A DNA stretch of 64,000 bases from a virus: the IMG/VR virus record IMGVR_UViG_3300025086_000013, positions 30,935-94,934 of that record; one strand, given 5' to 3'. Position 1 is the stretch's first letter; every line of letters starts with the position of its first letter. The notes below the pieces were generated by a model. That model did not search any database. It was not told where the DNA came from and was given only the letters and a program-made list of their open reading frames with translations. A program made the position numbers and the translations under genes. Of this stretch, positions 12,001 through 52,549 are shown piece by piece.

Positions 12001-12850
12001 CTTCACTTGCTATACCACCTGTTGCAACTGTTAAACCACCAAGTGCAACTTCTTCTACAAAAATACTACTAATAATACCAGCTGTATAAGAACTATTTAA
12101 AAATAAATCATTAACAAATCCACCAACACCACCTCTAGTAGAAGAGCCAACTCTCATTGCATCTCTCATAGATTCACCACCAACAAGATCTGTTTCAAGA
12201 CCATCACCAGTAAAGTAATCACCTATTGCTCTCCAGCTACTTGTAAATGCAGGACCAAACATATCTCCAAAAGCACCCATTGTTCTGCCCATATCATCCC
12301 ACCATGTACTATTTTGATTATAGTATACTTCATTATCTTGAAAAGGATGAAATCCTATATCTTGAAATTTAGGGTGTCTAAAGTATCTATCTGCATTCAT
12401 TTGCTTTTTACCATAGATAATAGGCTCTCTGTAACCAGCAGGAGTACCAGAAGTACTTTGATTTGCTACTTCATTTTTTCTACTAATAAATGCCTCTCTT
12501 CCTTCAGAAGTAGTTAAGTCAGGTATATTAGATGAATCAGTAAATGGATTTACATTTGGAGAAGAATTTCCTGGATAACCATCTCCTATATCTGGAATTT
12601 TTGGTAATACTGAATTAATATCATAAGAAGCTCTTTCAATTGCTTTTTTAGTATCAGGATCAACATTATAGTTATCAATATCTGTAATTGTAGAAGCCAT
12701 AAGCTTATCATCTATCTCATCCATTTGATATCCAGATAGTGCTTTTTCCTGTGTACTTATAGGCATAGTATTATTTACAGGAGGTTGAGATGTAGGTGTA
12801 GCAGGAATTTGGGTATTTGCTACTTGATTATTTGTATTTTCTTCTGCCAT
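1..12850 (-). CDS. Giant virion cargo protein (>4283 aa, 3'-truncated by the window edge) with an N-terminal hydrophobic/ejection region, a zincin-like metallopeptidase domain and a single-chain two-barrel virion RNA polymerase
   Basis: Not in the ORF track. ATG at 12850 (MAEENTNNQVANTQIP...), just after the upstream stop at 12854. In-frame motifs read by hand: HEAFH at 6248-6262 with downstream EEWMAD (~6047-6064); TDAQ (~2475-2486); KKWVYGDG..FIK (~2255-2293); SASK (~2085-2096); GVRIPSQ and GADFDIDK (DFDID at 965-979, about residue 3958). DFDID is the catalytic motif of the crAss-like virion RNAP (phi14:2 gp66). Continuity is inferred from the shared frame and the absence of any long stop-terminated ORF in the track. 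Confidence 0.92.
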   Translation of the reverse strand, partial: MAEENTNNQVANTQIPATPTSQPPVNNTMPISTQEKALSGYQMDEIDDKLMASTITDIDNYNVDPDTKKAIERASYDINSVLPKIPDIGDGYPGNSSPNVNPFTDSSNIPDLTTSEGREAFISRKNEVANQSTSGTPAGYREPIIYGKKQMNADRYFRHPKFQDIGFHPFQDNEVYYNQNSTWWDDMGRTMGAFGDMFGPAFTSSWRAIGDYFTGDGLETDLVGGESMRDAMRVGSSTRGGVGGFVNDLFLNSSYTAGIISSIFVEEVALGGLTVATGGIASEVAALRTAGNLKRLFTAADKLNDVGRTATNYTQNFMQELGAIDKARDFYNFAKGNTYTARAGRWVMSGIAPETAYALSKINSTKNGVKNLSNLAKASKTFGGFYRDLRMINLAWSESKLEGGIQELDKREQYYIEALEKNGGAELSKEEWDAINYLSKGVGWSTAWKNFPIIWLSNKLVLDGALRGFKPIGRMLDETMEGAGGRILRSKAGSEKAFFDAGTGLKGVWNAGWKNGAKGAGAAGLRYLTANFAEGFQELAQEAVAAGTGYYYDGLFNEVMSTSLDLNIASVESARKSGNVKFKDAYAAAIHGEGVTFETFMSGFLMGGMVQPFQKILFEHMPQAYTYVTDKEKYDNYQKQKEKYVKNSVDALNEMWADPRNYFDPTKIDGLTQKQLNIEMLAASYEGRIMNFKDAKDQAIFSKLYTMIDLGKANEFKKKFQAYLNMDNAELLEAFSDSEASADDVRKRLSGMLERLGDMENNYNKFKDKFINPYDASKFKTNSLAWAQEAIRERAYQQAKMMLMFSNDTYQRSIQRMESILEKLAVDPVIDNLAANDIAALTDRNSMLQEMSILTEELKIEPEKNAPKDFKKQYENKKEKLKLLKEYYDVFYSKENETSTSEFDRRKIAKLRKAFNNYIDHLALTSGKNRGGADKDKLNEALDMIIDHKTLGGRMIDYYKASQVLNNSEMLVEVADRMSESMNRIWKENKKKYNIYKKLDTFIKKQERSKYLSALAKKGIFADADQAKIFLESGVLPTDYYSEDSKINVVTAKENPAAWKIIQDEKTNHNLIVEADKKSKEEEVGEEAEVDKENIDKGSIDDDTTEEDLDAIAKGAGQSPVQVTTLDNLQKFLDKDPNTKEMLHVLHDEYKIRWANDKSTNKGPLIIDINKFIKSEYGAPFARSRQKTYAIYEKLSAAKKRDKTFDQWLSANQGLASIIKIVNTQGLDVVDILYDNVMNNKTKVKAEIDSNEVEEYAMKIGIRLVRTDAYNKKTNKKDKFWEIRTFANDNAHDMHRGLDPEGKFLKDHYTNKSEADQAMKDLREKLQETTEFDFKTSENKTDTFKKGDIVEDKDGNTWQVASSKDNVEEYNNLKVVSTEGTGKIKYIDQENFDDGGWTVGSKIGAKKEDRKEINLPATKTTRLRMQEPLQFYAFNPEINGRKLYSDSEDARLELARQIMEMDPETIANFEIRIERSDAYETNVAGKETKDLDQFENFEGYEVNTKIKRGGSKYSVVLWSGKEQIAVLQSPSDVILLDKNNNKINPLKITSEQAHQLFRTNKDDKAAEKLQRTYAAAYLLEEKFEDLINKSDDGTVKMKLTDLMDEQKIGVKINKGIVAYPKKKSEMTKFDQLEYNTIGTMKVDGVPTDIYYIIDQRVSELGSEERLAEADRITNFPQDEKWQQKKYKEFRAEVKEAADRADLRNNFGRYVLVIKTPDGEITFAEMKSESKSTSEISNIIQKIKDRVSLTKLNVDEGGNFKKEKGSQPERVDKKFNYKFNEELDNGSGEKDIFGFSKGLFISGKPGETIKLEVTEFGNLQVDYSRKFKTIVGGKNVEVKLDYDATIYPKDLEKIESNDVEGFIKLIQEKLDKKEAEAKKDHKGKVKFHETNFKLDASAFRNSVPKDATFKDLKDNTSVNIKPWIRYNQRMDLVVNDPAGIQRILDNAADPYDNIENEQQGEDDTTVFDLDTWYKKDFEKSLNNNFEKVPEAVLEDIARKVNEKQELKKQEDIIFRSRANRRKILNYVAALKQNDPKAEQIENEEGLTPPQTMNQQDVKDLDKLKKEYKDLWVQKFEKIKSTFPEGTKGLRRKVLDEVAKDPQIIALKAKIDELEGSVLKVVKDDWDGRDIQDINVFINWVKQNLPDYISIEEIDNLQLKLKNNGITVGAFLMELRKVAGGEKFFGKIYTGNTSPYRYHEAFHAVFRLMLTETEIVKYLSLGKKGLMAQLKSENKSLDKAIEEFKLQSPVYTDMTKEQAIERMSEEWMADRFEEFKINPKKTKVDPEIKSFFRKVLDWIISIFSKVTPKKWKENQIDKLFEKIDSGKFKTANRQTNRFTEALAETNGGIAAPVFAIIPKKTIVKKEKVRRAGEIIEIDTPIKIYFTSNESDKITRNIAAAYWDLISQAKISKEKGIKPKDLLRKAVDLIVETQNPDRAEYNDYSALEILDQEEKYEALKDHKRQIRKGAREYLDLLQTKQEFETHVDEHDALESKEENGGEQWDDEANQQGGFKNLSTELRLFIATTSVKEQDKYGKDIIINPEAAPKDQLVLRTGVDYIQAYNSMLKSMAGAVDEISMLKKMLLFGETSVNGAAVIKNFFVRLYGQNGYQDAMTKIMEEGVVPTPLDPIFYQKVIKGFSQFRVDYIFALRDKASGKTSLFAANKKDDAHSQLALWGEAFDQVFQKLKPRIETNKKGQDVNVYSPYFTQLQDVLDRLRSQMRKNTISDSLLKKVSKEIAADLEKLTGISLSAAYVQYSILSTGKTDAVTPYQSSITDLFDENPVTIEDLSELEQSLVRGENLFLDNQNAEELEALQEDIESKAEQEKPEGIKKRLGKWALANAAFDETVGTTVFLDPKGNYIYAHQLPTYHLQKIAMINKQGGLEEVMNNDATGYLAQNFLANDKRMQKLGELKKLKAIRMIGMKETTTTTTKDGTVIENKGLDANNMPGVSYGEMRPNEFLANMINMYLLNFNPVTGKIDEIEYTNENGKIDYFSTSPILIRVLSESNTSDWIEAPVNKAVETNKKTGDVSLRKDYLDNWIAEVEKEYNIILEETEKLLNPTADEDIIDGFNDANSLEEINDTKNDLNQKKYRAYKLTQTSEVTTIRRTADKRVEVTEDAVKKRLGSADFPLITKEGATQKVFLKKGGITGMRENTRATVIINGIEYQVAHQGIVQRTDVNIDAVIEELGDSIQKDSDDVFKFEVIDNDNNTYYVKSKRLQEWFNGVKGNGNNILHRIKIQPIEDAQIERAELGEFEQEGNVFDNSLKRHLEKEARKAKSFKDAMASFKHESGITSQEFIQEALLAQSDEFIKTAKKIKAEKLIDNRIKTQLSINKKEGKADRGVNQETKTSMEALNLKANQLEYNLKQIFLSNWLNTKSINQLLLGNQAMKIKDPIDAIKRAKMQNAAGKSAKSIITAPSLGVKHTLTEIDMIVFNDPEIDSEFYTDKPGDAISQTDAQVYGTLKGFRYKYFGLGELTKQQANLIDRLEKGEQITGEEMFGAADKSSIGYKQLDAQLNSKKWVYGDGSIFIKMSETYLIPDDDSYIDVNTGVRTPYPHRIKQYNLRTKLETWEKENNRVIMAVPKSASKMFNKNIAEHADLFESNTFINSKNVSVLNADYMRLQQVTPSNKTEIVDPRQIKNLILNEQDPSVEVVIGDKTITIGELKSLYHYSISNRVELKYLDRRSLIFDLSTALGEIDKSFNANEVSLDLKSFLDFAIAALESSQSKSQYLEFFSYDRITGQPNYELNNPITIQKMSELFMTFFSKGVLSEKQPGHNVVLMSDYGVNVVKRVDAKDKDGNPIAWTVVSTEGFKRMSDSEKSKLALDNEGNPVATENTDGKFSGLEVGDLYIDRLRYDVQEYKRNKDGKLMKDENNQLIPTDLVYAEFILPPHFREIMENLDPTKPIPDAIAKQFGVRIPSQDKHSAINLKIVDFMSAAKGSTAVFPRELIEVSGADFDIDKLYIQNKEFYTDTQGNFKEYGKGATLNEQFADYIRYKTLEYQNDKGSSMAMAVKKWRSNKGILYDSKYEIEKPADVIFDEYLTWATKDKKSGLLSGTDPKNVKAKWAKENGYDYDPTKNENETGGFDPLYKDEIDVNEKATDAQIMEFFGKNKHIAGALKVLGLPVTKNEYKEFRESNKKEYTYKDSKGKKQTGVLYSEPYAGGYNNNILDYKFALLGNNGMTKVLPGRRLGIKNEPAVIDPLADMWEKIKDRLPTLAAKAGEAGMDIDNMNGQTIAYTNVKEGARNIGSVVLPNVYLGWLKDFKISLREKNDFVSLPIPR

Positions 12851-12853
12851 TGG

Positions 12854-15800
12854 TTATTTTTTATCTTCCTCATTAATATCATTATTTCTTGCAGTCCATT
12901 GAACTGCAGCATTTTGTTTAAGGAATTCTTGTGTTGTTGAAAAATGTGCATTTAATTTTCTCACATCAACTACTGACTCTGAATGTCTTCCAGCATCTGG
13001 CTCAAAGTTTCCTGTGTCAGGATTATATCCATACATAGTAATACGTTCCATATATTGTCCATTACCATTAACATAATAAACAACTTCTCCCCCACCTTCT
13101 ATTGGGACCGGTTGATAAGTTTTAGCAGAAGAATTATCTATAATAATTTGTAGTGCATTAGGTCTGTTTCTAGACATATTTTTAGGATTGTTTTGTCTGT
13201 CAAACTCTTCTTTAACTAAAATTGTTATTTGATTGTTTGTTCCTTTCATTAGGTCTTCAATGTTTTTAGCATCACCATCATTATTGTTTAAACTAAGACC
13301 TGCATATTTTTTCATTTCATCTTGTGGAATTGTTAAAACATATCCTGAGTAATAATCATATTCTCCAGTTGCTTCATTATAAACTCTGCTTTCTTGACCA
13401 CCCATCATTTGAGACCATGAAATAGTTGCATTTCTTTCATCTGCTTCAGTATCACCATTTACAAAATCCCTTAACCAATGACTTTGAAGAAATAATTTTG
13501 CAGCTGCATCATCAGTAGTTTCATCTGGAAATTGAGTTTCATAATTTCCAAATTTAATTATAGTTGTAGCATCAGGAGCTTTTAAAGCTTGAGTAAGTCC
13601 ATAGAAATTATCTAAGGCAGCTGGGTTATCTTCAATATTAACACTATTTATATAAGAGAAATTTTTAGGATAAATTATTTGATCTGATCCTAATATTTCA
13701 TCTTGACCATATAAATCATTAAATACATGTGGTGTAGGATATTCTCCATTCTTAGCTTTTTCATGTGTAAATATAGTATTAAGTTGAGTAGTCATATCAT
13801 CATAGTGTGCATCTGCAAGTTCTAAAGCTTTAACTTTATTATATTGCCAACCGTTGTTTCCATCCCAATACCAAAGTTCTCCTCTTAAACTATTCTGTCT
13901 ACTCATAAAATTATTTGCATTAGGATCATCAAATGGTGAATTACCATTTTCATTTTTACCCCCATTACCATAATAACTATTTAAATAATTTGTTAGATCT
14001 CCAAGGCCATCATTATTATGTGTTACACTTCCATCAGTTCCAACTGTAGCAGTACCTCTACCTTGAGTTTGCATTAATATCATATTTCTATATTCATTTT
14101 TAGATAAATGTATTAAATCAGAATTAAAAATTCTACTACGAAAACTTTCTGTTCCCGTGTATCCTTCATCTACTAACCAAGGAACTTGTTCTTCAATCCA
14201 ATCCCAATGATTTTGACCATCTGCTCTTACAGCATCTTCAGGTGCAAATATATCTGCGTCAGTAAATCCATATCTACCTAGGTCATAATATCCTTGTGTT
14301 ACAACTAAATCACTATATCCATTTCTAGCATTTACAGCATATTGAGAATTTGGTTCTTGATTCTTTAATATATTTAAACCTTGTTGTTCTATCTTTTTAA
14401 AGTTTTCGCTAACCTCTGGAAGATAGGCTTCTGCACCTGCAATTTCTACACTAAGTTGTCCTAAATTATCTAATAATTGTTCACCCCATTTACCTCTAAA
14501 ATTAGTTCTTAATGCAACTGCTGGTCCACCACCTTCGGGTTTTATATATTCTACATCTGAATACCACTCATGTGCTTGATTGTATATCCTTTTTAATTGA
14601 TCATAATTTTCAGCTTTTAAAAAATGAGATTTAGCTTCTTGCATACTAACTACATTAGGATTGTTAGGATCTTTTGAAATATCAAATCCACCACCTGCTC
14701 CTCCATTCCATACTGAAGCAGCATCTCCTATATTATCATATATTTGTTCTACAAAACCAAACATATATTTTGTATTATCTTCATATGCATCATTTAAAGC
14801 TCCCCAATTTTCTGCAATTACATCAACATCAATTGCTTCTCCAGTTCTAGCAGCATCTCCTGCATCATTCCATGTAGAAATAATTTGATCCATAATATCA
14901 CCTCTACTTCCTTTTCCTTTTCCTGGATCACCATCTTTACCTTTATTCTTTAATTTCTGAAGCTCCATGTCATTTGCATGTTTAATAGCTTCCATATTCA
15001 TGTCATGAATTTGTTGAGATTCTATTTTTGCTGCTTCAAATATTTGTTTTTTTCTTTGTAGTTCTGCTTTATTTACTTCATATACTTGTTCGTGTGATCT
15101 TGTTGCATATTGTACAGCTGTATTATACATATCTGTTTTTAATGCACCATACATATAAGCTCCATATGCTTTGTTTGCTAATGCTCTTTCATCATCTGTA
15201 GGAGATTTTTGATCTTGAATGTGTGTACTTAATTTATCTCTAGTTTTTCTTTTTAGACTTAATTCAACTTGTTTTTTAAATAAGAAATCATCTTCTACAC
15301 TTCCTGTTTTAATGCCATATGTTTTTTTATATTCTTCCCATTGTTCTACAGTTAAAGCATCACCTTTTAATTCTGTATCTAGTTTAGCTAATTCTATAGT
15401 CTCATCTTTTGTACCTTCTGTTAATTGATCATTTCTCCATTGCCTTTTTGCAGCATTTATGTCTCCCCCGAATTTATCTTTATTTGCTTCTGCCCATTCT
15501 CTTTCTCTTACCTTAGCTTGAACAAAATACCCTTCTTTAATTTTTGGATCATCTTGAAATGCTTGTGCTAAAAACTCCATGGGTACATTTCTATATTTAG
15601 TTTCCCCATTTTCATCTGTATAAGGTTGACTAGTCATACCCATACCATTAACATGCTGCACCATGTAATCACCTTCAAAGGTTGTATACTTTATTGACAT
15701 TGCATCTTTAGTATCACCATCACCGTTTGGATCAGATAATAGTCTTTGCCCTTCTAGAAATAAATTTGGATTTTTTACATACCTTGGCATTGGTGCTGAT

Positions 15801-16282
15801 AAGGCTGCTTCATCAGTTCCATTTATAAAATCTTGCATTTCATAATCCATCCATACATCACCATCTCTCCAATAAAGCTCGCGTCTATCTCTATTATTAG
15901 AGTTCTTATATCTTTCCATTTCTCTTTTTTGACTTTGGTATCCTTTAGTATACATTAAGTCTTTAACTATATTCTTATCTTCATAAAAAGGTCTAAATAA
16001 AGCTTTTGCTGTTTCAACATTTTGTTGTAATGAAAGATCTAAACCACTAACTTGTTTTAATTTACTACTGAGTTGGTTAGCATATTGATCTCTTTTTATT
16101 TTATTATTCTCCCTAGATAAAGGAGCATATACTACTTGTCCATATAAGTCATTAATAGCTTTATGGTTAGTGTCATACCTATCTTGTCTAATTTGTAATA
16201 CATCCTGAAGAAATTTATAGTCAGGAGTAAACGGCTCTAACTGAGGTATGTAAGTTTGAACATTTGGTAAATAACTAGGCAT
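12854..16282 (-). CDS. Putative internal virion (cargo/ejection) protein, 1142 aa
   Basis: Long ORF directly upstream of the RNAP gene with a helical/coiled-coil N-terminal half. The position matches crAss-like cargo genes. No catalytic motif recognised. Confidence 0.6.
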   Translation of the reverse strand: MPSYLPNVQTYIPQLEPFTPDYKFLQDVLQIRQDRYDTNHKAINDLYGQVVYAPLSRENNKIKRDQYANQLSSKLKQVSGLDLSLQQNVETAKALFRPFYEDKNIVKDLMYTKGYQSQKREMERYKNSNNRDRRELYWRDGDVWMDYEMQDFINGTDEAALSAPMPRYVKNPNLFLEGQRLLSDPNGDGDTKDAMSIKYTTFEGDYMVQHVNGMGMTSQPYTDENGETKYRNVPMEFLAQAFQDDPKIKEGYFVQAKVREREWAEANKDKFGGDINAAKRQWRNDQLTEGTKDETIELAKLDTELKGDALTVEQWEEYKKTYGIKTGSVEDDFLFKKQVELSLKRKTRDKLSTHIQDQKSPTDDERALANKAYGAYMYGALKTDMYNTAVQYATRSHEQVYEVNKAELQRKKQIFEAAKIESQQIHDMNMEAIKHANDMELQKLKNKGKDGDPGKGKGSRGDIMDQIISTWNDAGDAARTGEAIDVDVIAENWGALNDAYEDNTKYMFGFVEQIYDNIGDAASVWNGGAGGGFDISKDPNNPNVVSMQEAKSHFLKAENYDQLKRIYNQAHEWYSDVEYIKPEGGGPAVALRTNFRGKWGEQLLDNLGQLSVEIAGAEAYLPEVSENFKKIEQQGLNILKNQEPNSQYAVNARNGYSDLVVTQGYYDLGRYGFTDADIFAPEDAVRADGQNHWDWIEEQVPWLVDEGYTGTESFRSRIFNSDLIHLSKNEYRNMILMQTQGRGTATVGTDGSVTHNNDGLGDLTNYLNSYYGNGGKNENGNSPFDDPNANNFMSRQNSLRGELWYWDGNNGWQYNKVKALELADAHYDDMTTQLNTIFTHEKAKNGEYPTPHVFNDLYGQDEILGSDQIIYPKNFSYINSVNIEDNPAALDNFYGLTQALKAPDATTIIKFGNYETQFPDETTDDAAAKLFLQSHWLRDFVNGDTEADERNATISWSQMMGGQESRVYNEATGEYDYYSGYVLTIPQDEMKKYAGLSLNNNDGDAKNIEDLMKGTNNQITILVKEEFDRQNNPKNMSRNRPNALQIIIDNSSAKTYQPVPIEGGGEVVYYVNGNGQYMERITMYGYNPDTGNFEPDAGRHSESVVDVRKLNAHFSTTQEFLKQNAAVQWTARNNDINEEDKK

Positions 16283-39046: not shown

Positions 39047-39955
39047 TTATCTAACTGGAAAACTTTTAAACATATCATAGTAATTACTATATTGTGCTTT
39101 TCTATTAACTTCCCATATTTTTTGTACCTCCTTAAAGTCAGGAGTATTAATAAATCCTAAAGCATTATTTCTAGCAGCTCTAAGTTTTTGTTCTATATAA
39201 CTTATTTTTTGTGAAACTTGTTCTCCACTAAATAACATGTTTTCTAATATTCTTTGTTTTAATGCATACTCATAGTATTCATTACAGTATGGATGGTCAA
39301 GCACTAATAATTCTCCATCTTCATTTTCCATGGCTCCTTGATAATTTATATAAACTTTTCCTGATGTAAAATTTGTTAATAAAAATCCATCTTTAATTTC
39401 TGCTACATCCATTGCTTGAATATTAATATTTGGACAATCACATTGCAAAGAACCAGTATTATCTTTTATTCTTAAAGGATAGAATCTACTAGAAGTTCTA
39501 TATTGTTCAGCACCCATATATTGAACAACCATGTATTGATCATATACTGTTTTTCCATTTTCTTCTTTAGGACAAGTTTGAACAACGCAAACATCTTTAC
39601 ATGTAGGATCATCACAAGGACCGGTATCACCACCGTCTGGAGCAGGTACATATTTAGTTTGAGTTGTATCTACATGTGTACCTGAAGGAAATGTATTTCT
39701 TATTTTAAATTCATCACAAACAAAAGCATAATTTAAATACTTAAAATCTGAAGGTAATTTAACTTTATTGTGTTCAACTTCTAAAAGATCTTCCTTAGTT
39801 CTATGTATTCTTAATCCTAAATCATAATTAACACGAGTTGCTACTTTAATTAATTGTTGAGGTTCTATCATTCCTTCTAGAGATTGTCCAGAAAAATCAA
39901 TACTAACATCAGCTAACAATTGATCAAAAGTTCTATATTTATGTGATATTGCCAT
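39047..39955 (-). CDS. Tail ring / tubular protein (crAss-like), 302 aa
   Basis: Position immediately before the muzzle gene; LPSDF...G.VYINY...ENEDGELLV pattern of podovirus adaptor/ring proteins; small Cys-rich loop. Confidence 0.6.
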   Translation of the reverse strand: MAISHKYRTFDQLLADVSIDFSGQSLEGMIEPQQLIKVATRVNYDLGLRIHRTKEDLLEVEHNKVKLPSDFKYLNYAFVCDEFKIRNTFPSGTHVDTTQTKYVPAPDGGDTGPCDDPTCKDVCVVQTCPKEENGKTVYDQYMVVQYMGAEQYRTSSRFYPLRIKDNTGSLQCDCPNINIQAMDVAEIKDGFLLTNFTSGKVYINYQGAMENEDGELLVLDHPYCNEYYEYALKQRILENMLFSGEQVSQKISYIEQKLRAARNNALGFINTPDFKEVQKIWEVNRKAQYSNYYDMFKSFPVR

Positions 39956-40629
39956 TATCTATTTACATTTTGTTTATTATCTCCATCTTCTGCAGGAGCT
40001 TTCATTGTATTAAATGTCTCTTGTAAAACTTGTTGTTCTATTTCAGCATGTAAAAATTCTGGTACAAAAAATCTTTGCATATATCTAGGAGGATCACAAT
40101 TATCAGTAGGATCACAATTAAACTTTGATATATCACCTTCAAAAATGCCTTCTATCTTTATAGCTTCCCATTCTATATTTGGAAGATATAAGTAATCATT
40201 TATCCACCAAAAATATTTTGTTTTATTATATTTAAATGAAGTTGTATTAGCCATTGCAGTAAATGTAGCAGGAGAAGTTGCTTGTACATTTACAGATCCA
40301 TCAATAGAAGAAACACTTCTAATTAATGGTCCCCAATAGCCTTCCATAAATGTTGGAAGTTTTAATCTTGTACGTTTAATTGTGCAATCACTTTTTATTC
40401 CACAACAATTTGATTCTATCTTATCTACATCAACTAAATCAACAAAAGTTAAAGTTTGCCATACACTATTAAACTTCATAAGTTTATTTGCACCATCTTG
40501 TCTTCTCATAAGAAGTGTAGAGTACTTTTTTATTAAGCTATATAAGTATCTATCTGTAACAAAAGCATCTTCAGATTCTGCTTTTATTTGATTTCTAATT
40601 CTAGATACTACATCCCCTATTGTTGTCAT
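39955..40629 (-). CDS. Tail ring protein (crAss-like), 224 aa
   Basis: Size, synteny between the IHF-like gene and the tubular/muzzle genes, and the T..D.V..IR...D..VTDR start. Confidence 0.55.
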   Translation of the reverse strand: MTTIGDVVSRIRNQIKAESEDAFVTDRYLYSLIKKYSTLLMRRQDGANKLMKFNSVWQTLTFVDLVDVDKIESNCCGIKSDCTIKRTRLKLPTFMEGYWGPLIRSVSSIDGSVNVQATSPATFTAMANTTSFKYNKTKYFWWINDYLYLPNIEWEAIKIEGIFEGDISKFNCDPTDNCDPPRYMQRFFVPEFLHAEIEQQVLQETFNTMKAPAEDGDNKQNVNR

Positions 40630-43263: not shown

Positions 43264-46200
43264 TTAACATGCTGATACAGTTTTTATATCTTCCCAATAA
43301 CCTCCTGATGAAGCATCAGCATCATATTTAGCAACTTTTCTTATTGTATCTAAAGCAGCTGCTCCATGTTGTGCATAATAAGCTCCATCTGTTAACTCAT
43401 CATTACTATCACTTGTGTTAGCACCTTGCACAGATTTATATGCTTTAACGCTTGTATCAAACTCAACACCTGTTGAATTATATATACTTATACATTGAGA
43501 AAGAGTTATAGCATATGTTCCTGCTTTTGAACAATTATTAGGTTGAGATGGATCACTACCGTAAGATGTTACTGCTACATTATTTAAAGTTCCTGTCATA
43601 ACTTTTCCATTATCAACGCCTGACGGACAGTTTATATCAGTTAAAATACCACCACCAGAAGTATCAGCACCCGTTATACGTTTTAATGCTGCTCCTAATT
43701 GTCTTTCATGTTTAGAAGAACTATATTTTTGAGAATCTGCAGTTAAAATAGATTTATCTATAAATGGCATAACTCTAAAACCATATCCATATAATCCTGA
43801 TATAGTATTTGCACCTCCTGCTGTAGTACCAGTATAAGGGACTGGTAATGAAGCACTAGGACTCATATATGGAGATATATCTATTGGATTTTTAACACTA
43901 CCAGAAGCTAATCCTTTGTATCCTGCTGTTGATAATGTTGTTCCTGTTAAAGCTCCAATTGCTTGTAATACAGCAGCAGAACTATTATCTTGAGATCCAG
44001 AAACAGTAGGTATTAAAATTTGTGTTAAATCAAATTGTTTATGTGTAATAGGATTTCCCCCTACAGCTGTTGTTCCCCATGTAGTTCTTAAAGCTTCATT
44101 TACCCATAATATATCTAATAATTCATCATAATGAGTTTGATAAGATGCTGTAGGTTGTGCAGGACTATTCCATCCATTTGAAATACTATTAGATCCATAA
44201 GTACCATTACCATTGACATCGCCTATAAAACAAATTAAATATACTGTACTAGGTACACTGTCTGTTGAAGATGCATCCCAATACGGAGGTAAATTTCTAA
44301 CAGCACTATACCCACTTGCTACACTAATACTACCAGTTCCACCATTTTTCTTGTCAACCATTGCTTTAGTATAGTTTAAATAGTCTCCAGAATTAGATCC
44401 AGTAACAGGTACATAATAAACAGAACCAGTCCAGTCTGAACAATTATCTAATAAAAATTGTTGTAACTCACCAACCTGATCTTTTATAATAACAGCTTCA
44501 TCTTCAGAATATATATTTGTATCTATAAATACTGTAATATCTGTATTTTTATTTGGTATAGCAGCTGCATCTACAATAGGAATAGTTACTGTATTAACTG
44601 TTCTATTTCCTGGATTACCAACAGTACAATCTGTTTTTGCATAAACTTCAATAGAATCTACTCCACCAGTAGGTCTATTTACAATAGGAGTATATATAAG
44701 TTGTACATCACCTTTTAAAGAGGCATCATAATTATTATCTGTAGGTAATAAAAATTCAGTTGAGCCACCAAGTGCTGATGTAGCATTCCATGTTATAGGT
44801 GTAGTTTGTTTTGAATAACCAACTATATTTATTGGTATTCTTAACTGTTTATTACCAACTGTACCCTCATAGGTATTAGGAGCATAAACATACCAAGCAG
44901 TTTTATCAGAACCATAACCTACATGATTAGCTGATTCAGTATCTGGACAATATAGAGGTCTTACATAAGATGGTTTACAATCACAACAGAATACTACTTG
45001 ATCAACACTTTTATTATCAGTATTTATTAAAGCATATACATAATAAGTTTTATTTCCACTAACTACAATTTCTCCTGCATATTGCCAGCCATTTTCTTCT
45101 GGAAGCATTGATGTTTTCATTCCAGTTGCTGCATATGTTACATTTCCACAAGATATACTTGTAGTTGGATTATCACTTATAGCATCTGAATAAACATGAA
45201 ATTGTCCATCTACACCAGCATCAACTGATGAATCTGTTCCTTTATATACAGCAACAGTTGAAGCATCAGATGCACTTAAACCAAACAGCCAAGAAGTAGT
45301 TGTAACCCCATCAGTATATTTTGCTATTTCTACTTTTGTTGTACCTATATCTGCTATTTTTGATTTATAGTCTGTAGAATTTTTAACAACTGTCACACAC
45401 GTTGGAGCTGATGTTTTAAATTCTATTTTATCACATGATGTTACATTACCAGCAAGAGTAGTTGTTTTACAATAAATCTCATATGTTGTACCTGCAACTA
45501 AACCAGTTGATTTACCTGTATTAGTTGCTACTGTAGGTTCTTTTATTGTTTGTTTAGACATTGTACTACCTAAAGAATCTTCAACTATAATTTCATAAGT
45601 GTTTTTTGAATTTGTAGTTAATTCAGTAATTTTATATTCAATAGAAGTTTCACCGGTACTAGTTAATTCAATTTTAGGACATCCTGAACTATTTTCTAAA
45701 GTGTACTCTGCAATTCGTTCACATTGATTAGATCCATCTGTAAAACAGAATTCTATTTTTATTTTAAAATTACTAGTTGTATCTAAAACATTACCAATGT
45801 TTCCTATAACATGACCAACTTTACTATTTTGTAATTCAGATACATTAGCATAATCTATTAGGGTATTTAAAGAAGAATCTTCAACTGTAATTTTAGTACC
45901 TCTAGCTTTATTGCAATCATAAAATCCAGTAGGTATAACCATATTTCTAAAGTCAATAGTAATACTAACAAGATTTCCTCCTGTATCTTTATTTATTCTT
46001 AATTTAGGATCATAAGTAAATCCTACACAACCTGATGGATGAACTGTAGATTGTAAATCAGAAACTGCACTTCTTACATCACATAATACTTTCCAATTAT
46101 TATCAATAGATTGAGATAAAGTAGAAGGAGATACGTGCCAACCTGCCATTGATGAATATTGACCAGCTCCATTTAAACGGTCTGTTGCAGATAAATTAAT

Positions 46201-47235
46201 ACACTGAGATCTAGAAGCTTTAAGAATATCTGCAGTACTTCCAAGAGCTTTTTTTAATTTAGAATAATCTAAATCTAAATCACTAAGTAATTTGTTCATT
46301 GGTACACGTTGACCAATTTTTCCTACAGATCTTGCAATAACAGTTGGTGGAGTATAGATTGCACCAGACTTTCTTTCTACATTTATAAGTTTTTTTTCTA
46401 GATTTTTTATTATAGGTAATTGTCTAACTGCTCTATTAGTAAGGTGTTGTGTATTATCTCTAATACCAGGAGCTCCACCTGCGGAAGGATTAGGACTACA
46501 ATCTACAGCAGTTAATAAACAACATAGTTTAGAACTAACAAATTCTAACCATCCACTATAAAAATATTGCTGATTACCGTCAAATTCCCAATAATATTGA
46601 GAATTTCCGCTATCAAGAAACATTGTATTAGTTATGGAACCATTTACTGTAATTGGAGTATTAGGAGACTCAACTGAATATATTTGAATACCCAAAGAAA
46701 CATTATTGTCTTGTACATATCCTAATGCACTTCTACACGGAAAGTCTACTTTTATACTTCCTGGATCTCCTGGACTACCTGCTGGACCCGGACTACCTGC
46801 TGGTCCTGGGCTACCTGCTGGTCCTGGGCTACCCGCTGGACCTGGATCACCTAGTGGTCCTATTGGTCCTATTGGACCTATTGGGCCTAAAGGTCCACTT
46901 GGTCCTTCTAATCCTTCAATACTATTTATGAAGTTCCATATTCTTGTAAGTTCAGTTACTGTATCACAATCAAACTGAATCATTATGTTTATTAAATCTG
47001 AAATAGTTTCAGGATCTTCTGTTAAACCATAACATGTCCAATCAATTAAACTTAGATCAAAAATTTCACCACCACCATCTAAATGACAAATAAATTCAGC
47101 TATCTTTGCAATAATAATACTAATAGTATCACCATTACAAACATCTATACAATCTAAATCTGGACCTTGCCATACAACACAATTTGAAGATATAGGATTA
47201 CATCCGTTTGTATTTCCAGTAGTAAGTGGTATCAT
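43264..47235 (-). CDS. Tail/head fibre-like protein, 1323 aa, with Cys-rich anchor, collagen-like segment and FN3-like domain
   Basis: [22 protein letters not shown]-terminus; 18 G-x-y triplets; [13 protein letters not shown]3-like motif; Thr/Ser/Gly-rich C-terminal half. Confidence 0.7.
46753..46914 (-). repeat. Collagen-like G-x-y repeat (18 triplets; 9-bp and 18-bp tandem DNA units)
   Basis: GLE GPS GPL (GPI)3 GPL GDP (GPA GSP)4 GDP GSI. Confidence 0.9.
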
Positions 47236-49813: not shown

Positions 49814-51055
49814 TTAAGTTGCTGAAGTCCAAGAACTAAGATCTTTAACTGTAGTTTGTGCCCAACCAGCTAAGTTAGTCATTACAGTATCTACATCTGT
49901 TTGTCCTGAAGTACCATTTACAACAGCAAATTTCAATATATATTGATCATTGTCAAATGTACCTGATGGGTTATTAAACCTTGGCACATGATGTTGTACG
50001 TAGTAAGCATCATAGTTAGTTGCAGTTCTATCAACAGCAGTAAATAAATCAGCACCTTGCTCTATCTCTCTCATTCTAGAAGCATTTTTACTTCCTACTG
50101 GGAAATGAAATTGTCTATATGATTCAGATAACAAAAGTTCACGTAATACACCTTCACCATGTCCAAGTGCTTGCGTACCAGTAGTGATTGTTTCTGTTCC
50201 ACAAGAAGTACACACATCTCCATCATCATCTAATATTTGCATATTTTGAATTTGAAGTGGTTCCATTTCATGATAATCTCTAGGATCAAATGAACAGTTA
50301 CCAAATGTAGTGCTAGTAAACGCAGCAGTAATTCGTAACATACCTTTATTTAAACCAGTAGGTGACGCATTAAAGAACGCAGAAGCTTCATATTGTGCTT
50401 GAAAAGTTTGAGAAGCTGTAGCAGTAATCTCATTAGCAGGTGTTGCTGCACCAGTATTTGTAGTAAATAACTGTACAGTAACCATTGTGCTCCAGTAATC
50501 ATCTCTTCGTATTTCATCAGCAATAGTAGCTAATACCCATGAAGGATCAATGTAAGGCTCATCTGTTTTACAACAGTAGTTATTACTTTGAAAAATCTTG
50601 TACATGTTGTGAGACATAAATCTTAAAGCTGGAGATCCTTTCATATCAACTCTTAAGTTGTATAAAGAACCACATGGAAAACATGTATGCTCTGCAATAA
50701 ACTCTCCTTTGGAATTACCAGCTGCCTGATGAGCTTGCTTACCAATGAATGAAGTATACTTTGGATTTAAAATTTTACTTTTTATAGTTTCTTGATAACC
50801 ACCCATTGCTGGATTATTACCAACGGTATCAGAACCGTAAGGGCTTGCTTGTGCAAAATAAAAAAGATCAGGATTAGCAGCTAGTGCACCATTTATAGCA
50901 CCAGAATTTAAACTGATATTTCCATCTTTAGTAAACAATCCTAATTGTGCAGTTGCTGTGTTTAACTGCGCTGGTGCAATTGCTACCGCACCTGGATTTT
51001 TATACACATCCCTTGGGACGAACGTTTTTTTAAACGCGTGAGAAAAATAACTCAT
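49814..51055 (-). CDS. Abundant structural protein (auxiliary capsid-type), 413 aa
   Basis: Has its own promoter-like motif and terminator; lies in the head module of a crAss-like gene order. Function inferred. Confidence 0.5.
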   Translation of the reverse strand: MSYFSHAFKKTFVPRDVYKNPGAVAIAPAQLNTATAQLGLFTKDGNISLNSGAINGALAANPDLFYFAQASPYGSDTVGNNPAMGGYQETIKSKILNPKYTSFIGKQAHQAAGNSKGEFIAEHTCFPCGSLYNLRVDMKGSPALRFMSHNMYKIFQSNNYCCKTDEPYIDPSWVLATIADEIRRDDYWSTMVTVQLFTTNTGAATPANEITATASQTFQAQYEASAFFNASPTGLNKGMLRITAAFTSTTFGNCSFDPRDYHEMEPLQIQNMQILDDDGDVCTSCGTETITTGTQALGHGEGVLRELLLSESYRQFHFPVGSKNASRMREIEQGADLFTAVDRTATNYDAYYVQHHVPRFNNPSGTFDNDQYILKFAVVNGTSGQTDVDTVMTNLAGWAQTTVKDLSSWTSAT

Positions 51056-51163: not shown

Positions 51164-52549
51164 TTAATTATTTTTTTCTGACTCTTGTGATGTCCTTTGT
51201 TGTTGATTCATATCACTTATATCACCGGCAAGTATTGATGCAGCAGAATCTATCATTATTTCTACTATATCATCTTTAAATTCACATTCTATGTCAGCTA
51301 CAACAGCTTGACCAGTGTAAGGATCAATAGAACCTTGTATTTGAATTCTTCTAGGAGTTCTATAATAAACTAATACTGGATTCATTATAAAAAAATCTTT
51401 TCTCCATATTCTTATACCAGCATGTCCACCTGGACCTAAAGTTAAAGGATCAAAATTACTTTCTCCCTCTTGAAAAGTACAAAATGTTTCACCCCATTCC
51501 CAATTTGGATTTTTTAATGGATCTCTTAATATGACATCTATATTAGCAACTTCTGATTGATATACAGTCATTTGTCTTGCATGAGTACAAAAGTTTTCTT
51601 GATCAGCACCAGGAGCACAAAAACATGAAACAGCTTCTTGAGCAGGAACAGCAGGCACTGCAGGAATTGGTGCTATAGGATCTACCCCTGGTACTCCAGG
51701 AATAGGAGGAACATCAATATCAGGTCCAGGAACTAAAACTTCTACATCTGTTGTTACAGTTATATAAACTGTAACTTCCCTACATGTTTTAAATTGATAC
51801 CAACATCCATCACTTCCTTGAGCAATATTACTAGGAAAAGACAAATTCATATCTAAAGCTTCAAGAGCAGCTATATATTCTGCTTGGGATAAACCACAAT
51901 TATCATCAAGTTGAGGATCTATATATTGAAATGCCATCAAATCAGGATTAGTTTGTGCAGCATTATATGCTACAACATCAGCTATAAAGGGAGTATTTCC
52001 CAGTGCAGTATTAGCATAAAAATATTCACATTGTGTTACTAATCTTGGTTCTCTAGTAGTAACTTGTTGTATCTCTATTACATCAGGACCTGGAATAGTA
52101 AATCCTGGAACTCCAGGTATTTCTGGTATTCCAGGAACTCCCGGTACTCCAGGAATTTCTGGTGTTCCTTCAGTAGCAGCTTGATCAGCAAAACATTGCT
52201 GTCCACCACATTCAATTTTTTTAAATTCTAAATAATCTCCTCCTAATTGTGGATCATAAATAACTCCAAAATTACTACTTTCAAAGTATCCAAATGTGCC
52301 ATTATAATTTACATCAACTCCAAATAACCTTTCTCTTTTTAATAAAATTTCTAAATCATCAATTCTTCTTTTAGACATTTCATCTCCTTCTTGACGCATA
52401 TTTGTTCCAGCCAATTGCCTTCTAACCCATTCAATTTGTGCTTTATTAAATGCTTCAGATATCTCCCAAGATTGAATATTGTCATAATCTTGACTATCAA
52501 TCTTATTGAGCCTTTGTTTTAACTTAATCTGGAGTGTTACATTATTCAT
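51164..52549 (-). CDS. Head-tail ring/adaptor protein with a ~190-aa Pro/Gly stalked insertion
   Basis: N-terminal LKQRLNKIDSQDY...EISEAFNKAQ and C-terminal YYRTP...ECEF..DIVEIM match the crAss-like ring protein pattern. The insert spans about 51617-52195. Confidence 0.65.
   Translation of the reverse strand: MNNVTLQIKLKQRLNKIDSQDYDNIQSWEISEAFNKAQIEWVRRQLAGTNMRQEGDEMSKRRIDDLEILLKRERLFGVDVNYNGTFGYFESSNFGVIYDPQLGGDYLEFKKIECGGQQCFADQAATEGTPEIPGVPGVPGIPEIPGVPGFTIPGPDVIEIQQVTTREPRLVTQCEYFYANTALGNTPFIADVVAYNAAQTNPDLMAFQYIDPQLDDNCGLSQAEYIAALEALDMNLSFPSNIAQGSDGCWYQFKTCREVTVYITVTTDVEVLVPGPDIDVPPIPGVPGVDPIAPIPAVPAVPAQEAVSCFCAPGADQENFCTHARQMTVYQSEVANIDVILRDPLKNPNWEWGETFCTFQEGESNFDPLTLGPGGHAGIRIWRKDFFIMNPVLVYYRTPRRIQIQGSIDPYTGQAVVADIECEFKDDIVEIMIDSAASILAGDISDMNQQQRTSQESEKNN

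What the first reader, a model, noticed from the sequence alone, without database searches (positions are those of the whole stretch)
51617..52195. Mirror-image Pro/Gly stalk carrying a head domain, inserted in the ring protein
Seen: an outgoing arm C-...(PGV/PEI)n-PGPDV-beta-rich-C (C119 to C174), an ~80-aa head with two further Cys, then a return arm in reverse order, C-beta-rich-PGPDI-(PGV/PAV)n-C (C256 to C309). The arms are 55 and 53 residues long. Inference: an antiparallel polyproline-II/beta hairpin pinned by disulfides at both ends, projecting a domain from each neck-ring subunit like a collar of antennae. This is the same design as the muzzle stalks, built from different sequence.
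Basis: partly seen in the sequence, partly recalled or inferred. Interest (0 to 1): 0.7.

Follow-up and report, generated by a model that had tools for sequence, protein, structure and literature searches.

The report
Stalked knob on phage tail ring
A tail-barrel ring protein of an uncultured marine crAss-like phage carries a 198-residue insert that reads as a two-stranded, disulfide-clasped proline/beta stalk topped by a fast-evolving small domain, so the tail is probably ringed by rigid antennae that touch the host, though none of this has been seen experimentally.

Summary
The 461-aa ORF (51164-52549, minus strand) is the sole R3/R4/R5-type tail-barrel ring protein of a marine crAss-like phage. 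The evidence is its fold (VIA Z 17.9 to crAss001 ring protein 3, PDB 7QOJ chain D) and gene order identical to crAss001. Most relatives are about 233 aa; this one has a 198-aa insert at one fixed loop.

One antiparallel register, i+j=430, aligns four features at once:
- both candidate cysteine pairs;
- the two PGPD motifs;
- two period-3 stripes of Ile/Val in the proline-rich parts (8 opposed pairs, 0 of 20,000 shuffles);
- every beta-bridge in both AlphaFold models.

A relative has both arms shortened to 43/43. The head is an orphan: 40% identical between phages whose ring cores are 91-96% identical.

Best reading: an outward-projecting rigid stalk (polyproline-II zipper, then beta-ribbon) displaying a variable host-contact knob on each subunit. 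Stalk pairing is well supported in silico. Disulfides, outward orientation and binding function are inferred. The ring type sits in the distal barrel, not the neck. The scan had already noted display loops in this phage's muzzle. New variant of a known kind.

The parts
51164..52549 (-). Whole gene: 461-aa tail-barrel ring protein of R3/R4/R5 type, carrying the insert
   Evidence: ORF. Fold match to 7qoj_D (ring protein 3, gp35): Z 17.9, rmsd 2.8 A, 218 of 226 residues. Gene order matches crAss001 gp31-gp36.
52211..52549 (-). N-terminal core (residues 1-113): conserved helices and first beta strands of the ring fold
   Evidence: pLDDT 84-98. Conserved in all homologues.
52163..52210 (-). Outgoing base (residues 114-129) with C114 and C119 in a C-x4-C-F motif
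   Evidence: Motif conserved in the 21-sequence clade. AlphaFold bridges 119-120 to 310-311.
52094..52162 (-). Outgoing Pro-rich segment (residues 130-152): seven P-[G/E]-aliphatic triplets, proposed PPII helix
   Evidence: A DNA tandem repeat of period 9/18 lies at 52110-52168.
52082..52093 (-). Outgoing PGPD joint (residues 153-156)
   Evidence: Lies exactly opposite the return PGPD under i+j=430. P153 is invariant in the 21-sequence clade.
52028..52081 (-). Outgoing beta strand (residues 157-173) and top clasp Cys C174
   Evidence: Strand 157-181 has pLDDT about 94-95 in the insert-only model.
51785..52027 (-). Head (residues 175-255), with C218 and C249, a predicted helix at 222-231 and a GCW motif
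   Evidence: C218 and C249 are invariant in the clade. Head identity to P0002 is 40%, against 91-96% for the cores. No relatives outside the family and no fold match.
51731..51784 (-). Top clasp Cys C256 and return beta strand (residues 257-273)
   Evidence: Strand 253-273 has pLDDT 83-96. It pairs with 157-177 in register 430.
51719..51730 (-). Return PGPD joint (residues 274-277)
51644..51718 (-). Return Pro-rich segment (residues 278-302): aliphatic residue at every third position from 280 to 301 (eight; I278 also pairs with I152)
   Evidence: A DNA tandem repeat of period 9 lies at 51641-51666.
51587..51643 (-). Return base (residues 303-321) with C309-x-C311 in the C-[FY]-C-APGAD motif, and family-conserved C321
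   Evidence: C309, C311 and C321 are invariant in the clade. C321 is at least 90% conserved in the whole family.
51167..51586 (-). C-terminal core (residues 322-461): beta-sandwich strands and two C-terminal helices of the ring fold
   Evidence: pLDDT mostly 94-98. Conserved in all homologues.

Best explanation
The gene encodes the single R3/R4/R5-type ring protein of the tail barrel of a marine crAss-like podovirus. At one loop of its peripheral beta domain it carries a 198-residue insert that forms a self-contained stalk and knob.

From base to tip the stalk has five parts:
- A four-cysteine base clasp: C119 opposite C311, with C114 and C309 as the likely second pair.
- Two antiparallel amphipathic polyproline-II helices, about 23 residues each. 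Their Ile/Val stripes repeat every third residue, face each other and zip the arms together.
- A two-fold-symmetric PGPD/PGPD joint.
- A two-stranded beta-ribbon of about 17-21 residues.
- A top clasp, C174-C256.

On top sits an 81-residue head with one internal Cys pair (C218, C249). If fully extended, the stalk is at most about 17 nm long.

Each subunit of the presumed dodecameric ring would project one such antenna outward from the lower tail barrel, close to the muzzle. The head, which evolves much faster than anything else in the protein, most likely makes reversible contact with a variable host-surface structure during adsorption. Stalk length can change through the 9-nt repeats that encode both arms, provided both arms change together.

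Shown in silico: ring identity, the insert at a fixed site, the antiparallel in-register pairing of the arms, and head hypervariability.
Inferred: PPII conformation, the disulfides, outward orientation, copy number and binding function.
For: Ring identity:
- Foldseek top three hits are crAss001 tail-barrel chains D, E and F, with target-normalised TM-scores of 0.73-0.80.
- VIA gives Z 17.9, rmsd 2.8 A, 218 of 226 residues to 7qoj_D. That chain is ring protein 3, gp35; chain E is ring protein 4/5, gp34.
- Gene order gp31-like, MCP (Pfam Crass_capsid, 2e-31), gp33-like, this gene, AUX-like matches crAss001. It is kept in 80 of 80 related IMG/VR loci.
- Ring 1 and Ring 2 Pfam hits lie next to the muzzle ORF.

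Insert at a fixed site:
- Searches show the variable segment between conserved cores.
- Insert-bearing proteins form one nested clade on the core tree (SH-like support 96-97).

Pairing of the arms:
- One register, i+j=430, fits C119/C311, C174/C256, PGPD/PGPD and 8 aliphatic pairs.
- AlphaFold bridges lie at 119-120/310-311, and at 147/283, 150-152/278-280 and 157-177/253-273 with pLDDT 83-96. All have the same sum.
- P0002 and P0003 keep arms of 55/55 although their heads differ in length. P0005 has 43/43, with both deletions at the base-proximal end.
- C174 and C256 occur together in the 4-sequence subclade and are both absent in the other 17 sequences.

Exposure and disulfides:
- Twelve inserts occupy about 3.2e5 A^3, assuming 133 A^3 per residue. 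The whole five-ring barrel lumen of crAss001 is 8.15e5 A^3. The 404-aa inserts of relatives would not fit inside.
- The same fold in the SU10 adaptor (Z 10.9) has fibre-dock loops that protrude radially (PMC9509320).
- The crAss001 tail is disulfide-stabilised.
- In this window the tail proteins are Cys-rich, while the MCP and two of the giant ORFs have none.

Head variability: 40-55% identity against 89-96% for the cores.
Against: - No experimental data exist. The phage is uncultured.
- AlphaFold gives pLDDT below 50-60 for most of the Pro-rich parts and for much of the head. PPII pairing therefore rests on sequence periodicity and register alone.
- The length covariation is a single independent event (55/55 to 43/43).
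- Cross-strand co-changes between P0001 and P0003 are only marginal (my estimate about 0.075).
- The separate clade with PGT-rich arms (P0022, P0023, P0033) does not obey a single constant register between its Cys and its repeated YG-x-x-P motif. Exact symmetry is therefore not general.
- I could not obtain coordinates, so Cys-Cys distances and the radial position of the insertion loop were not measured.
- The head has no recognisable binding fold or relatives. A binding function is argued only from position and variability.
Confidence: 0.55

Rival explanations
1. Internal strut or docking arm. The stalk lies along or reaches across the tail, and the head binds another part of the same virion, such as the collagen-like fibre (ORF 43264-47235), hub-like proteins or the muzzle. 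It would act as a built-in extension of the fibre-dock loop rather than as a host adhesin.
For: - In SU10 and T7-type adaptors of the same fold, the peripheral loop docks the phage's own fibres.
- In crAss001, rings R1 and R2 bind hub proteins through disulfides.
- One face of the beta-ribbon is semi-hydrophobic (V/I on nearly every rung), as if it packs on something.
- The neighbouring tail proteins are Cys-rich.
Against: - Docking interfaces are usually conserved, yet here the head is the fastest-evolving part (40% against 91-96%).
- The head is replaced by quite different, larger elaborations in sister clades.
- Most relatives with the same gene order lack any insert.
Confidence: 0.2
2. Unpaired flexible tethers. 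The Pro/Gly/Val-rich arms are elastin-like or intrinsically disordered linkers. They simply let the head diffuse around the tail. The two arms do not zip together below the beta-ribbon.
For: - AlphaFold pLDDT is below 50-60 for 128-148 and 284-300 in both models.
- VPG-type repeats resemble elastin-like sequence (my own knowledge).
- The repeats arise by DNA slippage.
Against: - Arm lengths are exactly equal in two length states.
- The Ile/Val stripes are strictly period 3 on both arms and in phase at exactly the Cys-defined register (8 pairs, 0 of 20,000 shuffles).
- AlphaFold bridges at 147/283 and 150-152/278-280 extend pairing into the Pro-rich part.
- The base Cys cluster is conserved.
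Confidence: 0.12
3. Collagen-type parallel triple helices formed between arms of three neighbouring subunits.
For: The outgoing arm reads as (G/E)-aliphatic-P triplets. Five of its seven P-x-aliphatic triplets have Gly at the middle position. The same phage does use collagen repeats in its fibre.
Against: - Gly is interrupted by Glu twice in seven triplets on the outgoing arm.
- Gly is present in only two triplets of the return arm, where Ala or Pro take its place.
- There is no Pfam Collagen hit for this protein at E up to 0.1. The fibre ORF hits at 2e-8.
- Outgoing and return arms of one chain are antiparallel. The return arms could not form a triple helix.
Confidence: 0.03
4. The twelve long amphipathic hairpins assemble into a 24-stranded beta-barrel collar or a membrane-inserting barrel, as in beta-pore-forming toxins.
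For: - The return strand alternates V/I with T/D/E.
- Weak, non-significant Foldseek rows include aerolysin-like proteins with long hairpins (E above 1).
Against: - An 81-residue disulfide-clasped head sits at the hairpin tip, which would have to cross the membrane.
- The outgoing strand is not clearly alternating.
- A 24-strand barrel (about 5 nm across, my estimate) is narrower than a tail barrel whose peripheral domains carry the hairpins.
- No fold match is significant.
Confidence: 0.03
5. The insert faces the barrel lumen and is a tethered cargo or plug.
For: The crAss001 barrel stores cargo proteins.
Against: - Volume: 12 x 198 residues is about 3.2e5 A^3 per ring, and up to 6.4e5 A^3 for the 404-aa relatives. 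The whole five-ring lumen is 8.15e5 A^3.
- A stalk of up to about 17 nm exceeds any lumen radius.
- In this window Cys-rich proteins are mainly the tail proteins, while most of the presumed internal giant ORFs have few or no Cys.
- The homologous domain in other adaptors is peripheral.
Confidence: 0.02

Closest known systems
Ring proteins R3 (gp35) and R4/R5 (gp34) of Bacteroides phage crAss001 (PDB 7QOJ; Bayfield et al. 2023, PMC10172136)
   Same: - Same fold: Z 17.9, rmsd 2.8 A, 218 of 226 residues to R3; TM-score 0.73-0.80 normalised to the target.
- Same genomic slot between the gp33-like and auxiliary-capsid-like genes.
- Same companion genes: MCP, Ring 1, Ring 2 and muzzle.
   Different: - No significant sequence similarity (hhalign probability about 1%; no Pfam hit).
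- This phage has one gene where crAss001 has two.
- It carries a 198-aa stalk-and-head insert that crAss001 proteins (230 and 238 aa) lack.
Head-to-tail adaptors of T7/SU10-type podoviruses, with a helix-bundle domain plus a fibre-dock domain (SU10 gp11, PDB 7Z47; PMC9509320)
   Same: - Shared fold: Z 9-11 over about 170-180 residues for the SU10, Pa223, A4, GP4, N4 and DEV adaptors.
- A peripheral non-helical domain whose loop protrudes radially and handles fibres.
- Weak Pfam SU10_adaptor hit of the insert-free relative P0067 (E 0.022).
   Different: - In those phages the loop is short and docks a separate trimeric fibre. Here the loop region itself has grown into a monomeric stalk with its own head.
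- Residue-level equivalence of the insertion site with the fibre-dock loop was not testable here.
Antigen I/II adhesins of oral streptococci: a stalk made of two antiparallel arms flanking a distal head (my own knowledge, Larson et al. 2010 PNAS; not checked here)
   Same: Same logic. An outgoing repeat arm and a returning Pro-rich PPII arm associate lengthwise into a long rod. The rod holds a binding domain, encoded between the arms, far from the anchor.
   Different: - There one arm is an alpha-helix and the other PPII. Here no helix is predicted in either arm; both arms are Pro-rich and then beta.
- There is no homology.
- This stalk is about ten times shorter and is disulfide-clasped.
Polyproline-II or polyglycine-II helix bundles: snow-flea antifreeze protein, the PGII sandwich of phage S16 gp38 adhesin (my own knowledge; not checked here)
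   Same: Antiparallel packing of left-handed three-residue-per-turn helices built from tripeptide repeats.
   Different: - Those are multi-helix sheets that depend on Gly-rich repeats for backbone-to-backbone contact.
- Here only two helices are proposed, Gly occupies at most one position in three, and the contact would be an Ile/Val seam.
Display loops in the muzzle protein of this same phage (earlier scan finding e1-6076155)
   Same: A virion tail protein with a conserved scaffold. Variable domains are held out on paired entry and exit pieces rich in Cys, and the payloads differ between related phages.
   Different: - Different protein and different stalk chemistry. The muzzle ORF has no long (P-x-aliphatic)n runs.
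- In the ring protein the insert types follow the core phylogeny. Divergence in place is better supported than cassette swapping.

Membership tests
crAss-like tail-barrel ring protein, R3/R4/R5 type | Two-domain fold: three conserved alpha-helices plus a beta-sandwich | tested here: met
   AlphaFold core pLDDT above 90. VIA gives Z 17.9, rmsd 2.8 A, 218 of 226 residues to 7qoj_D, ring protein 3. Foldseek probability is 1.00 to chains D, E and F.
crAss-like tail-barrel ring protein, R3/R4/R5 type | Genomic position downstream of the MCP and gp33-like gene and upstream of the auxiliary capsid protein gene | tested here: met
   Pfam Crass_capsid hit on the ORF two genes upstream. crAss001 order is gp32-gp33-gp34/35-gp36. 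The same order is found in 80 of 80 related loci.
crAss-like tail-barrel ring protein, R3/R4/R5 type | Co-occurrence with paralogous Ring 1 and Ring 2 genes and a muzzle gene | tested here: met
   Pfam CrAss_Ring_2 (1.6e-23) at 39955-40629 and CrAss_Ring_1 (2.2e-11) at 39047-39955, adjacent to the 2887-aa ORF. An earlier follow-up reads that ORF as the muzzle.
crAss-like tail-barrel ring protein, R3/R4/R5 type | Detectable sequence homology to gp34/gp35 or a curated family model | tested here: inconclusive
   hhalign of the insert-free profile against gp34 and gp35 gives probability about 1%. No Pfam or PHROG family of known function was hit. Even the crAss001 paralogues share only 15-31% identity.
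crAss-like tail-barrel ring protein, R3/R4/R5 type | Forms dodecameric rings stacked between R2 and the muzzle in the virion | not testable with these tools
   Only monomer prediction was available, and there is no virion.
Podovirus head-to-tail adaptor (T7 gp11 / SU10 gp11 type) | Helix-bundle domain plus fibre-dock domain fold | tested here: met
   Z 9-11 over 168-183 aligned residues to the SU10, Pa223, A4, GP4, KHP30, VP1, N4 and DEV adaptors.
Podovirus head-to-tail adaptor (T7 gp11 / SU10 gp11 type) | Pfam SU10_adaptor (PF24175) above the gathering score | tested here: not met
   No hit for the query. The insert-free relative P0067 scores 15.7 bits against a cutoff of 27.
Collagen triple helix | Uninterrupted Gly at every third residue over many triplets, on parallel chains | tested here: not met
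   On the outgoing arm Glu replaces Gly in 2 of 7 triplets. The return arm has Gly in only 2 triplets. There is no Pfam Collagen hit, while the fibre ORF of the same window hits at 2.1e-8.
PPII / PGII helix bundles (snow-flea AFP, S16 gp38 type) | Gly-rich tripeptide repeats forming multi-helix sheets | tested here: not met
   Only two candidate helices are present, and Gly occupies at most one position in three. No fold match was found for the insert, though the Pro-rich parts of the model have low confidence.
Antigen I/II-type alpha-helix/PPII stalk | One arm is a long alpha-helix wound with a PPII arm | tested here: not met
   No helix is predicted in either arm in the two AlphaFold models. 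This is a functional analogy only.

The most novel reading that the evidence does not exclude
The insert is a new kind of rigid protein spacer. It is a single-chain, two-stranded rod in which two antiparallel polyproline-II helices are zipped by in-phase Ile/Val stripes and continue into a beta-ribbon. It is clasped by disulfides at both ends, and its length is set genetically by matched 9-nt repeat numbers in the two arms. In marine crassviruses it would turn the adaptor-type fibre-dock loop into twelve or more built-in monomeric receptor-binding antennae on the tail barrel, an alternative to trimeric fibres.
Probability: 0.3. Interest if true: 0.75.

Novelty: new variant of a known kind. Interest (0 to 1): 0.6.

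Why it matters
The structural atlas of crAss001 (PMC10172136) describes ring proteins as plain barrel bricks, and in the text read here reports fibre-hub contacts only for R1 and R2. If the distal ring of marine relatives carries stalked, fast-evolving knobs, the tail barrel itself is a host-interaction surface. Host range in these abundant uncultured phages could then be tuned at a third site, besides the fibres and the muzzle.

The stalk is also of interest to protein science. A two-stranded PPII zipper held by an aliphatic seam is not among the PPII assemblies I know. It would be a compact, repeat-tunable rigid spacer for display applications.

The register rule found here (one constant i+j for Cys pairs, motif pair, hydrophobic stripes and predicted bridges) makes the model directly testable by disulfide mapping, SAXS and CD on a 200-residue fragment.

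Tried and rejected
Searches that gave nothing:
- tblastn of the protein against 50,697 phage records: no match.
- PHROGs and Pfam: only two weak PHROG hits of unknown function and no Pfam hit.
- PDB sequence search with the protein and with an insert-free profile found nothing significant. The one weak row was 9hz8_G (E 0.029), the 135-aa decoration protein gp002 of phage 7-7-1. It aligns to the Pro-rich return arm, and I treat it as compositional.
- hhalign of the family profile against crAss001 gp34 and gp35: not significant.
- ESM Atlas with the head: no usable hit.
- A dedicated 5.8-billion-protein search with the head alone returned only the query itself.
- Fold searches with the insert-only model gave a best VIA Z of 2.0 and a best Foldseek E of 1.7. 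The head model has low confidence, so this says nothing about fold novelty.
- Literature searches for antiparallel PPII stalks in phages and for marine crassvirus tail structures found nothing relevant.
- The scan's own index has no look-alike stretch elsewhere.

I used IMG/VR loci instead.
Cys-Cys distances, PPII dihedrals and the radial position of the loop could not be measured.

Ideas rejected:
- Collagen trimer.
- Lumen-facing cargo.
- Beta-barrel collar or pore (see the rival explanations for all three).
- Frequent cassette swapping as the source of diversity. Insert types are clade-specific on the core tree.
Full report
**What is there**

The finding lies inside a 461-aa ORF on the minus strand (51164-52549). 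No competing ORF of 60 aa or more overlaps it on either strand. Its cysteines are at 114, 119, 174, 218, 249, 256, 309, 311, 321, 357 and 422.

- After C119 come a short linker and seven perfect P-[G/E]-aliphatic triplets (130-150). Then follow PGPD (153-156), a 17-residue V/I/T/E/Q/R-rich segment and C174.
- An 81-residue head follows, with C218 and C249.
- From C256 the same modules return in reverse order: a 17-residue beta-type segment, PGPD (274-277), a Pro-rich run (278-302), a short linker and C309-x-C311.
- Both Pro-rich runs are encoded by 9-nt tandem repeats.

**What the host protein is**

The window is a crAss-like phage.
- The ORF two genes upstream hits Pfam Crass_capsid at 2e-31.
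- ORFs at 39955-40629 and 39047-39955 hit CrAss_Ring_2 and CrAss_Ring_1. They sit beside the 2887-aa ORF that an earlier follow-up read as the muzzle.
- The local order is gp31-like, MCP, gp33-like, this gene, then an ORF in the slot of the gp36 auxiliary capsid gene. This is the order of crAss001 gp31-gp36. It is kept in all 80 related IMG/VR loci retrieved.

AlphaFold2 on a 122-sequence alignment models the two cores at pLDDT above 90.
- Foldseek's only significant PDB hits are chains D, E and F of the crAss001 tail barrel.
- VIA gives Z 17.9, rmsd 2.8 A, 218 of 226 residues to 7qoj_D, far above the next rows.
- PDB sequence look-ups identify chain D as ring protein 3 (gp35) and chain E as ring protein 4/5 (gp34).
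- The next matches are podovirus head-to-tail adaptors at Z 9-11.

Sequence-level homology to gp34 and gp35 is not detectable. This is unsurprising, because the crAss001 paralogues themselves share only 15-31% identity.

The protein is therefore the single R3/R4/R5-type ring protein of this phage. In crAss001 that type builds the distal part of the barrel next to the muzzle, not the neck.

**It is an insert at a fixed, variable site**

Homologues keep an N-core of about 113 aa and a C-core of about 135-150 aa. Between them lies anything from 3 to 404 aa.
- In the exhaustive search of 50%-identity representatives, most full-length relatives are 220-242 aa with no insert.
- About 70 of the 80 best IMG/VR loci are the same.
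- On a tree of core columns only, insert-bearing proteins form one nested clade (support 96-97). Each insert type is itself a clade.
- This points to one ancient gain followed by divergence in place, rather than frequent cassette exchange.

The query with P0002, P0003 and P0005 is a subclade inside a 21-sequence clade. That clade shares a framework: C-x4-C-F at entry, an invariant Pro at the PGPD position, a C-G-x-[ST]-A-x-E-I helix, a G-C-W strand, and C-[FY]-C-A-P-G-A-D at exit.

A different clade (P0022, P0023, P0026, P0033, P0048, P0051) has independently Pro-rich PGT-type arms on both sides of a Cys-rich head. In P0022, P0023 and P0033 a Y-G-x-x-P motif is repeated on both arms. The two-armed Pro-rich design has therefore arisen at least twice at this site.

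**Do the arms pair?**

Several independent features agree on a single antiparallel register, i+j=430.
- C119+C311, C174+C256 and the first Pro of one PGPD plus the Asp of the other all sum to 430. The arms are thus 55 and 55 residues, not 55 and 53.
- The aliphatic residues of the outgoing Pro-rich run (132, 135, 138, 141, 144, 147, 150, 152) lie opposite 298, 295, 292, 289, 286, 283, 280 and 278.
- The count of opposed aliphatic pairs is 8 at sum 430. It is 0-1 at shifts of +/-1 or +/-2, and 6-7 at multiples of 3. None of 20,000 shuffles of the return segment reaches 8.
- The AlphaFold bridges obey the same sum. They are 119-120 with 310-311 in the full model. In the insert-only model they are 147 with 283, 150-152 with 278-280, and 157-177 with 253-273, where the ribbon has pLDDT 83-96.
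- Relatives P0002 and P0003 keep 55/55 although their heads differ in length (sums 437 and 433).
- P0005 has 43/43 (sum 408). Both 12-residue deletions lie at the base-proximal end.
- C174 and C256 are present together in these four sequences and absent together in the other 17 of the clade.

A period of three with Pro on one edge and Ile/Val on another is what a left-handed polyproline-II helix with three residues per turn would need to present a hydrophobic seam. It does not fit a beta strand, which has period two. I therefore read the lower half of the stalk as two antiparallel PPII helices zipped by that seam, and the upper half as a beta-ribbon. The PPII assignment is inference; AlphaFold is not confident there.

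**Collagen is excluded**

Gly is not at every third position. Glu interrupts the outgoing arm twice, and the return arm has Gly in only two triplets. The protein has no Pfam Collagen hit. The 1323-aa fibre-like ORF of the same window has a strict G-X-Y run and hits Collagen at 2e-8.

**Which way does it point?**

I could not obtain coordinates or a multimer model, so this is inferred from three arguments.
- Volume. Twelve inserts of 198 residues occupy about 3.2e5 A^3, and twelve of the 404-residue relatives about 6.4e5 A^3. The entire five-ring lumen of crAss001 measures 8.15e5 A^3 and stores cargo. A stalk of up to about 17 nm also cannot fit a lumen radius.
- Homology. In SU10 and T7-type adaptors of the same fold, the non-helical domain is peripheral and its fibre-dock loops protrude radially (PMC9509320). 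The insert sits in that domain, between strands 106-117 and 325-332.
- Cysteine distribution. In this window the tail proteins are Cys-rich: muzzle 60, fibre-like 33, the 607-aa ORF 21, the 228-aa ORF 12, this protein 11. The MCP and two of the giant ORFs have none. The crAss001 tail is known to be disulfide-stabilised.

**What it probably does**

Between the query and P0002 the cores are 91-96% identical, the stalk 78-100%, and the head 40% with indels. Against P0003 the head is 55%.

The head has no detectable relatives outside the family in 5.8 billion proteins, no Atlas neighbour and no fold match. Its model has low confidence, so fold novelty cannot be claimed.

A rigid spacer holding out a small, rapidly diverging, disulfide-bonded knob from the part of the tail nearest the cell is most simply read as an auxiliary host-contact device used in reversible adsorption.

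The main rival is that the head docks the phage's own fibres or hub. The ancestral role of this domain in other podoviruses favours that reading. The head's variability, and the absence of any insert in most syntenic relatives, argue against it.

**Verdict**

The structural interpretation is well supported computationally, but the disulfides, the PPII state and the orientation remain unproven. The label 'neck ring' should be 'distal barrel ring type'.

The host protein belongs to a known kind. The insert and its proposed PPII-zipper/beta-ribbon stalk are, as far as these searches show, undescribed. I class it as a new variant of a known kind, with moderate to high interest.

Noticed in passing
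whole window, ORFs listed: Cysteine is strongly partitioned. Tail and surface proteins are Cys-rich: muzzle 60, the 1323-aa ORF 33, the 607-aa ORF 21, the 228-aa ORF 12, the 183-aa ORF 10. The MCP, the gp31-like protein and two giant ORFs (2-12850 and 12854-16282) have none. This suggests a disulfide-stabilised exterior, as in crAss001.
   Followed up: partly
43264-47235 (minus strand): The 1323-aa ORF has a strict G-X-Y collagen repeat at residues about 108-162 (Pfam Collagen, 2.1e-8) and 33 Cys. It is a likely tail fibre, and it contrasts with the non-collagen Pro-rich arms of the ring protein.
   Followed up: partly
49814-51055 (minus strand) and loci L002-L031: The ORF in the slot of the crAss001 auxiliary capsid protein is far more divergent between related contigs (28-57% identity) than the adjacent MCP (78-96%). 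This points to a second fast-evolving surface component.
   Followed up: no
protein P0056 (relative with a short insert): A run of 11 consecutive prolines sits at the same insertion site in a 296-aa relative. The loop tolerates, or favours, Pro-rich extensions even without a head.
   Followed up: no
proteins P0022, P0023, P0033, P0048, P0051: A separate clade has PGT-rich arms on both sides of a head with 8-15 Cys. In P0022, P0023 and P0033 a direct-repeat motif Y-G-x-x-P sits at the head-proximal end of each arm. Unlike in the query, the distances from Cys to motif are not symmetric on the two arms.
   Followed up: partly
proteins P0070 and P0073: Two database proteins join a ring-protein part to TPR or glycosyltransferase Pfam domains. 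They are probably chimeric assemblies or gene-calling artefacts rather than real fusions.
   Followed up: no
residues 231-314 of the protein (window about 51608-51859): The return arm gives a weak PDB hit (E 0.029) to the 135-aa capsid decoration protein gp002 of Agrobacterium phage 7-7-1 (9HZ8 chain G). The alignment shares V-P-G-P-x-I-x-V-P and a C-A motif. It is probably compositional.
   Followed up: partly
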